DNA of 64,000 nucleotides, taken from assembly GCF_017348835.2 (NCBI RefSeq), contig NZ_CP071375.1, one strand, 5' to 3'. The stretch comes from Escherichia coli (GTDB taxonomy: Bacteria; Pseudomonadota; Gammaproteobacteria; Enterobacterales; Enterobacteriaceae). A program made the position numbers. Below, in pieces: positions 36,001 through 42,000 of this stretch (positions within the stretch are counted from its first letter, which is position 1; the number at the start of each line of letters is the position of its first letter).

Positions 36001-39000
36001 GCATCTGAATCGATCACGGTTTGGCCAAACCGTGATCGAATAGAGAGGAATACGCACGTAATGATTAAATGCTTTTGTTACACCATTCTTCCGGCATGAA
36101 TATTTATCCAGTTCCCTTTTTTATTTGTGTAGTGATACTGTCGGAATAGCGTTCAGTAATGTGAAGTGTCCTGTTAAAAATCTTTAATAAATGTGTCACC
36201 CTGGTCAGGAAATATCTGCTGAGATATTATTAGTTGGTGGGTAAGCGTACAGCCTGAACCGTCTGGTCAGAATCTGACGAATTAGACAAAGTGGTGTCCA
36301 CCAAATAAGTAGTGGGAACCAAAGTATCAGATATGCAGAAAAATGTGACTCCCGGCAGGCGAAAAGGCTGCCCTAATTATCCTCCCGAATTTAAACAGCA
36401 GCTCGTTGCTGCCTCCTGTGAACCCGGGATATCCATCTCAAAACTTGCTCTTGAAAATGGCATTAACGCCAATCTGTTGTTCAAATGGCGACAACAATGG
36501 CGCGAGGGAAAGCTGCTATTACCTTCTTCAGAGAGCCCCCAGCTACTTCCTGTGACTCTCGATGCAGCTGCCGAACAGCCAGAATCGCTCGCAGAGGACC
36601 CGGAAACCCTCAGTATCAGCTGTGAGGTAACGTTCCGGCACGGGACGCTCCGCTTCAATGGCAATGTCAGCGAAAAGCTCCTGACTCTGCTGATACAGGA
36701 ACTGAAGCGATGATCCCGTTACCTTCCGGGACCAAAATTTGGCTGGTTGCCGGTATCACCGATATGAGAAATGGCTTCAACGGCCTGGCTGCGAAAGTAC
36801 AAACGGCGCTGAAAGACGATCCCATGTCCGGCCATGTTTTCATTTTCCGGGGCCGCAGCGGCAGTCAGGTTAAACTGCTGTGGTCCACCGGTGACGGACT
36901 GTGCCTCCTGACCAAACGGCTGGAGCGTGGGCGCTTCGCCTGGCCGTCAGCCCGTGATGGCAAAGTGTTCCTTACGCAGGCGCAGCTGGCGATGCTGCTG
37001 GAAGGTATCGACTGGCGACAGCCTAAGCGGCTGCTGACCTCCCTGACCATGCTGTAAATCTCTTTATCCTGGTTGTCACAGAATAAGCCCGGTAAAATAC
37101 GGGCTTATGAACGACATCTCTTCTGACGACATCTTCCTGCTGAAACAGCGCCTGGCCGAACAGGAAGCGCTGATCCACGCCCTGCAGGAAAAGCTGAGCA
37201 ACCGGGAGCGCGAAATAGACCATCTGCAGGCGCAGCTGGATAAACTCCGCCGGATGAACTTCGGCAGTCGTTCCGAAAAAGTCTCCCGCCGTATCGCACA
37301 AATGGAAGCCGATCTGAACCGGCTTCAGAAAGAGAGCGATACGCTGACTGGTAGGGTGTATGACCCGGCAGTACAGCGTCCGTTGCGTCAGACCCGCACC
37401 CGTAAGCCGTTCCCTGAATCACTACCCCGTGACGAAAAGCGACTGTTGCCTGCGGCGCCGTGCTGCCCGAACTGCGGCGGTTCACTGAGCTATCTGGGCG
37501 AGGATACCGCCGAACAGCTGGAGTTGATGCGTAGCGCCTTCCGGGTTATCCGGACGGTACGGGAAAAACATGCCTGTACTCAGTGCGATGCCATCGTGCA
37601 GGCACCTGCACCTTCGCGGCCCATCGAGCGGGGTATCGCCGGACCGGGGCTGCTGGCCCGCGTGCTGACCTCGAAGTATGCAGAGCACACCCCGCTGTAT
37701 CGCCAGTCAGAAATATACGGCCGGCAAGGTGTGGAGCTGAGGCGTTCACTGCTGTCGGGCTGGGTGGATGCATGCTGCCGGCTGCTGTCTCCGCTGGAAG
37801 AGGCGCTTCATGGCTATGTCATGACTGACGGCAAACTCCATGCCGATGATACCCCGGTCCAGGTACTGCTGCCGGGTAATAAGAAGACGAAGACCGGGCG
37901 GTTGTGGGCGTATGTTCGTGATGACCGCAATGCAGGGTCAGCGTTGGCACCTGCAGTGTGGTTCGCTTACAGCCCGGACAGAAAAGGCATCCATCCGCAG
38001 ACTCATCTTGCCTGCTTCAGCGGTGTGCTGCAAGCGGATGCGTACGCCGGGTTCAACGAGCTGTATCGCAATGGTGGGATAACGGAAGCTGCCTGCTGGG
38101 CTCATGCCCGCCGAAAGATCCACGATGTGCACGTCCGCATCCCGTCAGCACTGACGGAAGAAGCCCTGGAGCAGATCGGTCAGTTGTACGCCATAGAGGC
38201 GGATATAAGGGGAATGCCGGCAGAGCAGCGGCTTGCTGAACGTCAGCGAAAAACGAAACCGCTGTTGAAATCCCTGGAAAGCTGGTTGCGTGAAAAGATG
38301 AAGACCCTGTCGCGACACTCAGAGTTGGCGAAGGCGTTCGCGTACGCACTTAACCAGTGGCCGGCACTGACGTACTATGCGAACGATGGCTGGGTGGAAA
38401 TCGACAACAACATCGCTGAAAATGCCCTGCGGGCGGTCAGTCTGGGTCGTAAAAACTTCCTGTTCTTCGGCTCTGACCATGGTGGTGAGCGGGGAGCGCT
38501 ACTGTACAGCCTGATCGGGATGTGCAAACTGAATGACGTGGATCCAGAAAGCTACCTTCGCCATGTGCTTGGTGAACCGCCCCGGAAATCCTGGAGACTA
38601 AACTCCCTGAGAAAGAGGTAAACAGGATGACTAAAAATACTCGTTTTTCCCCCGAAGTCCGTCAGCGGGCGATTCGTATGGTTCTGGAAAGTCAGGATGA
38701 ATATGACTCACAATGGGCGACAATTTGTTCCATTGCTCCAAAGATTGGCTGTACGCCGGAGACTCTGCGTGTCTGGGTTCGCCAGCATGAGCGGGATACC
38801 GGGAGTGGTGATGGTGGACTCACCACCGCTGAACGTCAGCGTCTGAAAGAGCTGGAACGTGAAAATCGTGAACTGCGCCGCAGTAACGATATCCTTCGCC
38901 AGGCTTCCGCTTATTTTGCGAAGGCGGAGTTCGACCGCCTCTGGAAAAAATAATGCCACTGCTGGATAAGCTGCGTGAGCAGTACGGGGTCGGACCGGTA

Positions 39001-42000
39001 TGCAGCGAACTGCATATTGCCCCGTCAACGTATTACCATTGTCAGCAACAGCGACATCATCCGGATAAACGCAGTGCCCGTGCGCAGCACGATGACTGGC
39101 TGAAGAAAGAGATACAGCGCGTATACGATGAAAATCACCAGGTATACGGTGTGCGTAAAGTCTGGCGTCAGTTGTTACGGGAAGGTATCAGAGTGGCCAG
39201 ATGCACTGTGGCACGTCTCATGGCAGTTATGGGACTTGCCGGTGTTCTCCGGGGTAAAAAGGTCCGCACTACCGTCAGCCGGAAAGCCGTTGCCGCATGC
39301 GACCGCGTAAACCGTCAGTTCGTGGCAGAACGTCCAGACCAGTTGTGGGTGGCTGATTTTACCTGGGTAAGCACATGGCAGGGCTTCGTTTATGTGGCGT
39401 TCATCATTGATGTGTTCGCCGGATACATCGTGGGATGGCAGGTCTCATCATCCATGGAAACAACATTCGTGCTGGATGCACTGGAGCAGGCGTTGTGGGC
39501 CCGTCGGCCGTCCGGCACAATCCATCACAGTGATAAAGGTTCTCAGTATGTATCGCTGGCCTACACGCAGCGGCTTAAGGAAGCCGGATTACTGGCATCA
39601 ACAGGGAGTACTGGCGACTCGTATGACAACGCGATGGCGGAGAGCATCAATGGTCTTTACAAAGCGGAGGTAATACACCGTAAGAGCTGGAAAAACCGTG
39701 CAGAAGTGGAACTGGCCACACTCACGTGGGTGGACTGGTATAACAATCGACGATTGCTGGAAAGGCTGGGCCATACTCCCCCGGCAGAAGCAGAAAAAGC
39801 TTATTATGCTTCCATCGGAAACGATGATCTGGCAGCCTGAGTTCACAGATAAAACACTCTCCAGGAAACCCGGGGCGGTTCATGGCGTCATAGCAGACTG
39901 GCCGGTCAACCGGGTCAGCGAACTGCTTCCGTGGCGCATAGCACTGCCAGCTGAATAACACATCCCCGTCAATACGGCCCTCGCTGTACGCTTACGAAGT
40001 TAATACCGTTTTGTCTGTTTTTTTAACAAAGAAAATAATCCTGGAGTAGGTTCCCGGGCATTTGCCCGGGATGATTACTGTTTTAATGGATTATTAATCT
40101 TTGCATATTCAAATGGACTGATAAATCTTTCTCTGTTTGCATCCAGAAAATCGGCCCACCACTGTAGCATCAGTCGCCGTTCTTCCAGATGTTCTGCTTT
40201 ATGAATGTAAGCAGCACGTACACCGTTACGTTCCTGATGGCTCATCTGACGTTCAACTGCATCGCGGGACCACAAACCTGATTCTATTAACGCACTACAT
40301 GCCATCGCCCGGAATCCATGACCACAGACATCCTGGGTTGTGTCATACCCCATAACCCTCAGGGCTTTATTTACGGTGTTTTCACTGATTGGTTTACGTG
40401 GGTCATGTGCTCCCGTAAAGATCAGACCATTTTCACCAGCCCATGTCTGAAGTTCTGCCAGTATGGCTACAACCTGTTTGCTGAGTGGCACAAGATGTGG
40501 TGTTCGCATCTTGGATCCCCGGTGTGAGAATTTTACGCCTGGCAGAGGTTCGCGTTCGGCTGGAATAGTCCACATGGCATTGTCAATATCAATTTCAGAC
40601 CAGCGGGCGTATCTGAGTTCACTGGAACGAATAAAAACCAGTAAATTCAGCATAACGGCAAGCTGGGTGACAGGTTGCCCCTTGTAACTGCCAATACGCG
40701 ACAAAAGTTCAGGCAGGCGAGAAAGATCAAGAGCGGGGCGATGCTGGCGTTTTACCGTAGTCAATGCGCCAGCCATATCCAGAGCAGGATTATATCTGAT
40801 GATGCCAGACTGTACGGCATAACGCATTACGGCAGATATTCTTTGCTGCAGACGACTGGCGATTTCATAAATTTGTTTAGCTTCTGCAGCACGAACAGGG
40901 ATAAGCAGGTCCGGGGTATTGAGTGTTGTGATATCCCGATTGCCGATAAAGGGGAATACGTGTGTCTCGAGGCTTTTGAGTACTTTATCGCTGTGTGATT
41001 GTGCCCATTGTTTATTACTGGCATGCCAGCGTCGTGCAATATGTTCGAAAGAGAGTTGTAAATCAGGGACTACTTTTTTAGCTCTTTTCTGTTCGCAAGG
41101 GTCAACCCCCTCCGAAATCAGTTTTCGGGCCTCATCCCGTTTTGTACGAGCTTCGGAGAGAGATACTTCTGGATACACACCAAGTGCCAGAGTCTTCTCT
41201 TTACCCAGAATACGATAACGGAGACGCCAGTAACGGGAACCATTAGGATGTACCAGCAGGAACATGCCAGCCCCGTCAGTGAGTTTATAAGCCTTGTCAG
41301 TGGGCTTTGCAGCCCGGATTTTTGCGTCAGTCAGTGCCATAGTTCAGCCTTCTGAATGCGTTAAAGAGGGTACAAATTCTGTCGAACTGGGGTATGCCCG
41401 CAATTATACCCACACAATGAGGTTGATGTGGGGAGAATTTGGTTGAGTTCGGTAGAATTGATTTGGAGGAAGAACACTTAAATCATGGTGTTCTGAAACG
41501 AAAAACGGACCTCCGTGGAGGTCCGTTGATATGAATTTGGTGCCCGGACTCGGAATCGAACCAAGGACACGGGGATTTTCAATCCCCTGCTCTACCGACT
41601 GAGCTATCCGGGCAACGGGGCGCATTAAACCGTAATCTGCACATCTCGTCAACCTAATTTCAGTAAAAGCGATTCAACTGCTTAAGATTGCGGCAAATCG
41701 CTTCTTTTCTGTGTTTCTGTCAGGTCAATGCGCCACCCTGGCGGCAGCGGGCGAAGCGCAGGATATCTTCCGCCAGCCGATGTGCAGTGTCGACATCCGC
41801 CTGGCTACGATTCACCAGCATTCGGCTTAAACAGCCTTCCAGCACCAGTTCCATCTGCTTTGCTACCATCGCCGGATCGTCAACTTCCAGCGTGGTTAAC
41901 AGTTCGTGGGTGAAATCGTAAGCCGCGCTTTTTTGCTGATCGGCCAGTTGATGAATAGGGTGGCCAGGATCGGGATAAAACGTACAGGCAGCGATAAATA

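What the first reader, a model, noticed from the sequence alone, without database searches (positions are those of the whole stretch)
38570..39885. IS-in-IS nesting: IS629-like element inside the ISEc8-like tnpC with a TGG target duplication
The IS3-family element (38573-39882) is bounded by its inverted repeats and a 3-bp direct repeat TGG. Removing one TGG and the element restores an uninterrupted IS66 TnpC C-terminus (...YLRHVLGVIADWPVNRVSELLPWRIALPAE*). The IS66-family host element is therefore inactivated for autonomous transposition, and the order of events (ISEc8 first, then IS629) can be read directly from the sequence.
Basis: seen in the sequence. Interest (0 to 1): 0.4.

Follow-up and report, generated by a model that had tools for sequence, protein, structure and literature searches.

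The report
One insertion sequence nested inside another
A 1.3-kb IS629-type jumping gene has landed inside the transposase gene of an older ISEc8 jumping gene at the edge of the LEE virulence island of a pig E. coli lineage; the reading is correct, but this is an ordinary, well-understood event.

Summary
A 1310-bp IS3-family element of the IS629/IS1203 type lies at 38573-39882. It has 25-nt inverted repeats and is flanked by TGG at 38570-72 and 39883-85. Removing it together with one TGG gives a 2442-bp ISEc8 (36241-39995) with a 512-aa TnpC.

Two other strains carry the same ISEc8 at the same locus, the LEE island at tRNA-Phe (pheU), without the insert and with TGG present once. They are pig strain F2_81 (99.9% identical flanks) and O157:H16 strain 98-3133. 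This proves a simple transposition into a pre-existing ISEc8.

Among 5,426 complete E. coli genomes only PE164 (porcine O108:H9 aEPEC) has the occupied site. Three draft assemblies also share it, so it marks one clone.

The claim that ISEc8 is now dead is reasonable but untested. TnpC loses 23 C-terminal residues, cutting Pfam PF13817, but it keeps the whole DDE core. This is also the only ISEc8 on the PE164 chromosome.

One mild curiosity: a second, independent IS629-like insertion in a diverged IS66 relative (AR_0013, pN32a) sits at exactly the same nucleotide.

Verdict: real, correctly read, already-known biology, low interest.

The parts
36241..38572 (+). ISEc8 (IS66 family), left 2332 bp, including the left inverted repeat 36241-36262
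   Evidence: Terminal repeats found. The left end is identical to an O157:H7 ISEc8 copy. After excision the element has 2 differences in 2442 nt from the orthologous copy in O157:H16 98-3133.
36333..36713 (+). ISEc8 tnpA (126 aa, accessory protein)
   Evidence: Pfam HTH_Tnp_1. NCBIfam IS66-like TnpA, 97.7 bits against a cut-off of 74. RefSeq WP_001171554.1.
36710..37057 (+). ISEc8 tnpB (115 aa, IS66 accessory protein)
   Evidence: Pfam TnpB_IS66, 131 bits. NCBIfam IS66_TnpB, 120 bits against a cut-off of 50.
37107..38621 (+). Interrupted tnpC. It encodes a 504-aa chimera: TnpC residues 1-489, then 15 residues ([15 protein letters not shown]) and a stop read from the left end of the inserted IS.
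   Evidence: ORF listed. Pfam LZ, zf-IS66 and DDE_Tnp_IS66 are intact; DDE_Tnp_IS66_C is cut to 25 of 39 positions. The exact protein is also encoded in three NCBI draft assemblies.
38570..38572 (.). Left copy of the 3-bp target duplication, TGG
   Evidence: TGG is single-copy at the orthologous empty sites.
38573..39882 (+). IS3-family insertion sequence of the IS629/IS1203/IS3411 type, 1310 bp, apparently intact, in the same orientation as ISEc8
   Evidence: Inverted repeats 38573-38597 and 39858-39882. 95.8% identical to an O157 IS1203 copy of the same length. 99.4-99.8% identical to copies in O103:H2-type and pig strains. The fused OrfAB scores 362 bits on NCBIfam transpos_IS3, cut-off 160.
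38627..38953 (+). orfA of the IS629-like element (108 aa, helix-turn-helix)
   Evidence: HTH_Tnp_1. No internal stop.
38908..39024 (+). Programmed -1 frameshift region: the A6 run at 38945-38950 and the ALIL pseudoknot
   Evidence: Rfam RF01497 ALIL, 120.3 bits against a gathering score of 50, full length 1-117. RefSeq annotates a programmed frameshift and the 'AL1L pseudoknot' here. The fused OrfAB of 404 aa was reconstructed.
38953..39840 (+). orfB of the IS629-like element (295 aa, DDE/rve catalytic domain)
   Evidence: Pfam HTH_21, rve and rve_3. No internal stop.
39883..39885 (.). Right copy of the 3-bp target duplication, TGG
39886..39995 (+). ISEc8 right 110 bp. It holds the orphaned last 23 codons of tnpC (through the stop at 39956-39958) and the right inverted repeat 39974-39995.
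   Evidence: 100% identical to the right end of an O157:H7 ISEc8 copy. Repeat found. RefSeq calls the tail an incomplete 'hypothetical protein'.

Best explanation
An IS629/IS1203-type IS3-family element transposed into codon 489/490 of tnpC of an ISEc8 copy. That ISEc8 copy was already fixed between the remnant CP4-like module and the integrase of a LEE pathogenicity island at tRNA-Phe (pheU).

Staggered cleavage of the target and gap repair duplicated TGG. This step rests on established IS3-family chemistry: a copy-out, paste-in mechanism through a circular intermediate, driven by the frameshift product OrfAB.

The event is recent and happened once, in a porcine O108:H9 atypical-EPEC lineage.

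Consequences:
- TnpC becomes a 504-aa chimera that lacks its last 23 residues.
- The right ISEc8 end is pushed 1313 bp away.
- Because this is the only ISEc8 on that chromosome, the host element is probably stranded (inferred).
- The inserted element keeps both ends, both ORFs and its frameshift signal, so it is probably still mobile (inferred).
For: Shown:
- The anatomy of both elements.
- Exact restoration of a 2442-bp ISEc8 and a 512-aa TnpC on excision.
- A near-isogenic empty site in pig strain F2_81. It has the same island; flanks are 99.96% identical on the left over 5.5 kb and 99.90% on the right over 3.0 kb; the flanking alignments overlap by exactly the 3-bp TGG.
- A second orthologous empty site in O157:H16 98-3133, with 2 differences in 2442 nt in the ISEc8.
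- The occupied junctions occur as one piece at 100% identity only in PE164 among 5,426 complete genomes.
- The uninterrupted site is found in 3,431 genomes.
- Draft contigs of three further assemblies are 100% identical across the left junction.
- 3-4-bp duplications are the published habit of IS629 (PMC3271280). An O157 IS1203 copy shows ATG/ATG.
- PE164 has a single ISEc8 place on its chromosome.
Against: Nothing contradicts the insertion itself.

Weak points concern only the inferred consequences:
- No functional data exist for a TnpC lacking 23 C-terminal residues.
- NCBIfam's transposase model is still matched almost end to end, and RefSeq annotates the chimera as an ordinary transposase.
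- The 41.7-kb plasmid of PE164 was not checked for a helper ISEc8.
- Activity of the inserted element is inferred from intact features, not shown.
Confidence: 0.97

Rival explanations
1. The nested structure was not made by transposition at this locus. It was copied in by homologous recombination or gene conversion from a pre-existing nested ISEc8::IS629 elsewhere in the cell.
For: Another IS629-like/IS66-tail junction at the very same nucleotide exists in other E. coli (AR_0013, pN32a). Nested donors can therefore exist.
Against: - That other junction lies in a diverged IS66 relative: 7 differences in the 110-bp tail, TGA instead of TGG, and an IS3 copy only 96.6% identical.
- The window's tail is 100% ISEc8.
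- No second copy of the window-type junction exists in any of the 5,426 complete genomes.
- PE164 has only one ISEc8 place on its chromosome.
Confidence: 0.02
2. The arrangement is an assembly artefact created by collapsing or mis-joining repeated IS copies.
For: IS elements are classic sources of misassembly. PE164 holds about 32 places matching this IS3 element.
Against: - The structure is a textbook insertion with a perfect 3-bp duplication and an exactly restorable ORF.
- Independent short-read draft assemblies (GCA_034296255.1, GCA_019365205.1, GCA_022538675.1) read 100% identically across the left junction and then stop inside the IS, as expected for a true repeat boundary.
Confidence: 0.01
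3. The insertion is real, but the host ISEc8 is not dead. Either the 504-aa TnpC chimera still works, or the 3755-bp composite can be moved in trans, so the nested pair can travel as one unit.
For: - Both ISEc8 ends, tnpA, tnpB and the zinc-finger and DDE domains of TnpC are intact.
- NCBIfam's IS66 transposase model is matched over positions 4-384 of 387.
Against: - The conserved Pfam C-terminal element is cut, from 53.3 bits in the restored protein to 28.9 bits, below the cut-off of 30.
- The composite is seen at one locus only in all collections searched.
- There is no second ISEc8 on the PE164 chromosome to help in trans.
- From my own knowledge of Han et al. 2001 (J Bacteriol 183:4296; not held in the library), tnpA, tnpB and tnpC are each needed for IS679 transposition.
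Confidence: 0.15

Closest known systems
IS629 / IS1203 / IS3411 (IS3 family), the abundant IS of EHEC O157:H7, O26, O103 and Shigella
   Same: - 1310 bp with the same termini (TGAACCGCCCCGG...CCGGGGCGGTTCA).
- orfA of 108 aa and orfB of 295 aa, overlapping at TAATG.
- An A6 slippery run plus the ALIL pseudoknot.
- A 3-bp target duplication.
- A tendency to sit in or beside other IS elements ('IS islands', PMC3271280).
Supporting calls: 10, 18, 35, 53.
   Different: - It is 4.2% diverged in nucleotides from the O157 IS1203 copy compared here (55 of 1310 positions; 3 of 108 OrfA and 7 of 295 OrfB residues).
- It is closest (99.4-99.8%) to copies in O103:H2-type and porcine strains.
- RefSeq gives it only the generic IS3-family name.
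ISEc8 (IS66 family) of EHEC/EPEC
   Same: - 2442 bp after excision, with GTAAGCGTACAGC termini.
- tnpA, tnpB and tnpC of 126, 115 and 512 aa.
- At least 99.9% identical to copies that RefSeq names ISEc8.
Supporting calls: 3, 5, 22, 23, 28.
   Different: - This copy is interrupted in tnpC.
- It has no 8-bp target duplication (GTTGGTGG on the left, GAAGTTAA on the right). The orthologous copies in F2_81 and O157:H16 share this trait. An O157 prophage copy does have a duplication, GGTTATCG.
Nested ('IS-in-IS') insertions in general, as used for relative dating of transposition events
   Same: The inner element is younger than the outer one. The outer reading frame can be restored by excision. The site is polymorphic (present or absent) among close relatives.
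   Different: Nothing of substance. This is a standard example with unusually clean empty-site controls.

Membership tests
IS3 family (IS629/IS1203/IS3411 group) | Length of about 1.2-1.5 kb with imperfect terminal inverted repeats ending 5'-TG...CA-3' | tested here: met
   1310 bp. 25-nt repeats with 22 of 25 complementary, TGAACC...GGTTCA.
IS3 family (IS629/IS1203/IS3411 group) | Two overlapping ORFs (orfA, then orfB in the -1 frame) joined by a programmed -1 frameshift | tested here: met
   orfA 38627-38953 and orfB 38953-39840, with orfB in the -1 frame. A6 run at 38945-38950. Rfam ALIL pseudoknot at 120.3 bits against 50. The frameshift itself is inferred from sequence, not assayed.
IS3 family (IS629/IS1203/IS3411 group) | OrfAB transposase with an N-terminal helix-turn-helix and a C-terminal DDE (rve) catalytic core | tested here: met
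   Pfam HTH_Tnp_1, HTH_21, rve and rve_3. NCBIfam transpos_IS3 at 361.9 bits against a cut-off of 160, covering model positions 1-369 of 369.
IS3 family (IS629/IS1203/IS3411 group) | 3-4-bp target site duplication | tested here: met
   TGG on both sides and single at two orthologous empty sites. The habit is reported for IS629 in PMC3271280.
IS3 family (IS629/IS1203/IS3411 group) | Isoform-level identity to the named reference IS629/IS1203 (ISfinder convention of roughly 95% nucleotide identity or more, recalled from memory) | tested here: inconclusive
   95.8% identical to an O157:H7 copy that RefSeq names IS1203, which is borderline. The ISfinder references themselves were not available. RefSeq labels this copy only 'IS3 family transposase'.
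IS66 family / ISEc8 | Three consecutive genes tnpA, tnpB, tnpC, with TnpC carrying the zf-IS66 and DDE_Tnp_IS66 domains | tested here: met
   Pfam and NCBIfam hits for all three.
IS66 family / ISEc8 | Terminal inverted repeats beginning GTAAGCG and an element length of 2442 bp, matching named ISEc8 copies | tested here: met
   2442 bp after excision. The ends are identical to an O157:H7 ISEc8 copy. 2 differences in 2442 nt from the O157:H16 copy.
IS66 family / ISEc8 | 8-bp target site duplication | tested here: not met
   The flanks are GTTGGTGG and GAAGTTAA. The same mismatched flanks occur in F2_81 and O157:H16 98-3133. This marks a later rearrangement at this copy, not non-membership: the O157 copy has GGTTATCG on both sides.
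IS66 family / ISEc8 | Ability to transpose | not testable with these tools
   This needs a transposition assay. Sequence shows only that TnpC lacks 23 C-terminal residues.

The most novel reading that the evidence does not exclude
IS629-type elements may have a real insertion hot spot at the TGR triplet in the last 70 nt of IS66-family tnpC.

- Two independent events occupy exactly the same nucleotide in the same orientation. One is this one, in ISEc8. The other is in a roughly 93%-identical IS66 relative, found in AR_0013, plasmid pN32a, two PLSDB plasmids and one metagenome contig.
- A third junction lies 14 bp upstream, in JE86-ST05.

If real, one IS family would preferentially disable another, by a recognition rule that is not resemblance to its own ends.
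Probability: 0.12. Interest if true: 0.3.

Novelty: already known. Interest (0 to 1): 0.1.

Why it matters
It matters little beyond bookkeeping.

- It is a clean presence/absence marker for one porcine O108:H9 aEPEC clone. The site is occupied in PE164 and three draft assemblies and empty in the near-identical F2_81.
- It shows that the IS629-type element was recently active in that lineage.
- It exposes a small annotation flaw: RefSeq lists the truncated chimeric TnpC as an ordinary transposase.
- It has no visible effect on the LEE genes or on the adjacent integrase, which is read towards the insertion from the other side.
- The repeated hit at the same nucleotide of IS66-type tnpC is the only element that could grow into a question about IS629 target choice, which published work calls unknown (PMC3271280).

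Tried and rejected
- **Target resembles the IS ends?** I tested whether the target looks like the ends of the IS, as reported for some IS3-family members. The best local match of either end to the 120-bp empty site scores 8, and 39% of shuffles do as well. Rejected.
- **More hits at the same nucleotide?** I scanned metagenome contigs for further independent junctions (IS right end + NNN + tnpC tail). The only hit was the AR_0013-type module again. A plasmid search added only the same two junction types. The hot-spot idea therefore stays at two coincident events.
- **O157:H7 hits from the first search.** High-scoring three-piece matches looked like nested copies, but in the one inspected (BB24-1) IS1203 and ISEc8 lie side by side in a prophage, not nested.
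- **Literature.** A search for an IS629 target consensus returned nothing beyond PMC3271280. Han et al. 2001 on IS679 and the IS66 family is not held, and a follow-up search for an open source on the requirement for tnpC found nothing usable. That point rests on my own knowledge.
- **Assembly artefact and gene conversion** were considered and rejected; see the rival explanations.
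Full report
**Observation.**
- A 1310-bp element occupies 38573-39882. It begins TGAACCGCCCCGG and ends CCGGGGCGGTTCA. Its 25-nt terminal inverted repeats are 22 of 25 complementary.
- TGG lies immediately outside each end, at 38570-38572 and 39883-39885.
- Deleting the element and one TGG leaves a 2442-bp element (36241-39995) with GTAAGCGTACAGC terminal repeats. Its 512-codon tnpC ends ...YLRHVLGVIADWPVNRVSELLPWRIALPAE*.

**What the two elements are.**
- The outer element carries tnpA (36333-36713), tnpB (36710-37057) and tnpC (from 37107). Their Pfam and NCBIfam signatures are those of the IS66 family.
- Its ends are identical to an O157:H7 copy that RefSeq names ISEc8. 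That copy carries the family's 8-bp duplication, GGTTATCG.
- The inner element has orfA (108 aa, helix-turn-helix) and orfB (295 aa, rve/DDE) overlapping at TAATG. It has an A6 run and a full-length ALIL frameshift pseudoknot (Rfam, 120 bits against a gathering score of 50).
- The reconstructed 404-aa OrfAB scores 362 bits on NCBIfam's IS3 transposase model, cut-off 160.
- It has the same length and termini as an O157:H7 IS1203 copy, which is flanked by its own 3-bp duplication, ATG. Nucleotide identity to that copy is 95.8%.
- Published IS629 sub-types differ by 4-5%. IS1203 and IS3411 are treated as isoforms, and IS629 makes 3-4-bp duplications (PMC3271280).
- The closest copies (99.4-99.8%) are in O103:H2-type and porcine strains. 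'IS629-like' is therefore an apt label, although RefSeq uses only 'IS3 family transposase' for this copy.

**Where it sits.**
- The window matches the chromosome of E. coli PE164 at all but 4 of 64,000 positions, none of them in the region of interest. PE164 is a porcine O108:H9 atypical-EPEC/ExPEC hybrid (PMC12233904).
- The window spans the LEE type III secretion island inserted at tRNA-Phe next to dsbD-cutA-dcuA. I take this to be the pheU site, from my own knowledge.
- The nested pair lies at the island's integrase end, between a degraded CP4-like module and the integrase gene (40075-41340, minus strand). The tRNA is at 41541-41613.

**Proof of insertion and order of events.**
- The 120-bp junction rebuilt in silico matches uninterrupted ISEc8 at 100% identity. 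3,431 of 5,426 complete E. coli genomes hold a place covering at least 80% of it.
- Two strains carry the same ISEc8 copy at the same chromosomal position with the same flanks and no insert.
- O157:H16 98-3133 differs at 2 of 2442 nt in the ISEc8.
- Pig strain F2_81 is 99.96% identical over 5.5 kb on the left and 99.90% over 3.0 kb on the right.
- In both, the alignments to the two sides of the window overlap by exactly 3 bp, and TGG is present once. ISEc8 was therefore in place first, and the IS629-like element arrived later and duplicated TGG.

**Distribution.**
- Both occupied junctions occur as a single 100%-identical piece only in PE164 among the complete genomes.
- The diagnostic 504-aa chimeric TnpC is encoded in three further NCBI draft assemblies. 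Their contigs are 100% identical to the window across the left junction and end inside the IS.
- The insertion is thus a young marker of one clone.
- F2_81 has the empty site, and its plasmid carries the most similar copy of the IS found (99.8%).

**Mechanism and consequences.**
- *Shown:* a simple insertion with a 3-bp duplication; an inner element with all recognisable parts intact; and a TnpC reading frame that now runs into the IS and ends after 15 foreign residues.
- *From established knowledge of the IS3 family:* the frameshift product OrfAB mediates copy-out, paste-in transposition through a circular intermediate, and repair of staggered target cuts gives the duplication.
- *Inferred:* the ISEc8 copy can no longer move on its own.
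- *In favour of that inference:* the cut falls inside Pfam's conserved IS66 C-terminal element. The score drops from 53.3 bits in the restored protein to 28.9 bits in the chimera, below the cut-off of 30. The PE164 chromosome has no second ISEc8 to help in trans.
- *Against certainty:* only 23 of 512 residues are lost, and the zinc-finger and DDE domains are whole. NCBIfam's transposase model is still matched over positions 4-384 of 387, which is presumably why RefSeq annotates the chimera as a normal transposase.
- No effect on neighbouring genes is apparent. The next gene downstream is the integrase, read in the opposite direction.

**A side observation.**
- The right-junction search found a second junction type. 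An IS629-like element, 96.6% identical to this one, is joined to the last 110 bp of a diverged IS66 relative. That tail has 7 differences in 110 bp, and the triplet is TGA instead of TGG. The join is at exactly the same nucleotide and in the same orientation.
- It occurs in the AR_0013 chromosome, plasmid pN32a, two PLSDB plasmids and one metagenome contig. In the three copies inspected (AR_0013, pN32a and the metagenome contig) it lies beside the same TonB-receptor module. In AR_0013 and pN32a the left part of the IS66 element is gone.
- Because the window's ISEc8 is essentially identical to its empty orthologues, the two events must be independent.
- A third junction, in JE86-ST05, lies 14 bp upstream. 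Others lie about 66 and 200 bp upstream, on a pO157 plasmid and on APEC plasmids.
- Two hits on one nucleotide are suggestive of a preferred site but remain only two events. The target shows no resemblance to the IS ends. Published work found no target rule for IS629.

**Comparison with what is known, and verdict.**
- Both elements belong to well-described IS families. Nested IS insertions and their use for ordering events are routine, and IS629 is known to accumulate in and around other IS elements (PMC3271280).
- The finding is real and correctly interpreted, apart from one untested clause.
- It is of low general interest. Its value is as a strain marker and as a small correction to the annotation.

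Noticed in passing
window 36233-36240 and 39996-40003: The host ISEc8 has no 8-bp target duplication (GTTGGTGG on the left, GAAGTTAA on the right). The orthologous copies in F2_81 and O157:H16 98-3133 have the same mismatched flanks. An older ISEc8-associated deletion or recombination therefore shaped the integrase end of this LEE island before the IS629-like insertion.
   Followed up: partly
L003 (AR_0013) 3751-5173; L006 (pN32a) 2366-3788; L012 (metagenome contig QWBY01011713.1) 1-257: An IS629-like element is joined to the 110-bp tail of a diverged IS66-family element at exactly the same nucleotide and in the same orientation as in the window (TGA instead of TGG). In L003 and L006 the left flank is unrelated DNA; L012 begins inside the IS, so its left flank is not visible. 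This is an independent event and may point to a preferred target.
   Followed up: partly
L004 (JE86-ST05) 3656-4186: An internally deleted IS629-like remnant is joined to the ISEc8 tnpC tail 14 bp upstream of the window's insertion point, next to pic and the aerobactin genes. It is another IS629-type/IS66 junction in the same short stretch.
   Followed up: partly
window 37107-38621 and 39884-39958: RefSeq (PE164) annotates the 504-aa chimeric TnpC as a normal 'IS66-like element ISEc8 family transposase' (WP_207184234.1) and the orphaned tail as an incomplete hypothetical protein. The disruption is not flagged.
   Followed up: yes
window 3576, 10469, 31943, 43939: The window differs from the PE164 RefSeq chromosome at these four single bases only. 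It therefore comes from PE164 itself (another assembly version) or from a sister isolate.
   Followed up: no
window 31974-32587 and about 33300-34400: espF is annotated as frameshifted and incomplete. The CP4-like module between espF and ISEc8 is degraded (partial cbeA, DUF5983 and JAB genes), and about 0.86 kb including cbtA is missing relative to O157:H16 98-3133. F2_81 shares the degraded CP4-like module.
   Followed up: no
window 36010-36039: A perfect 30-bp palindrome (TCGATCACGGTTTGG/CCAAACCGTGATCGA, no spacer) lies in the intergenic DNA about 200 bp upstream of the ISEc8 left end.
   Followed up: no
L013 (F2_81) 4067-5604: The uninterrupted tnpC of the orthologous ISEc8 in F2_81 is annotated as frameshifted, and its alignment to the window over 33041-38572 contains a single gap (presumably this 1-nt deletion). 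That copy may also be defective, or the assembly may have a homopolymer error.
   Followed up: no
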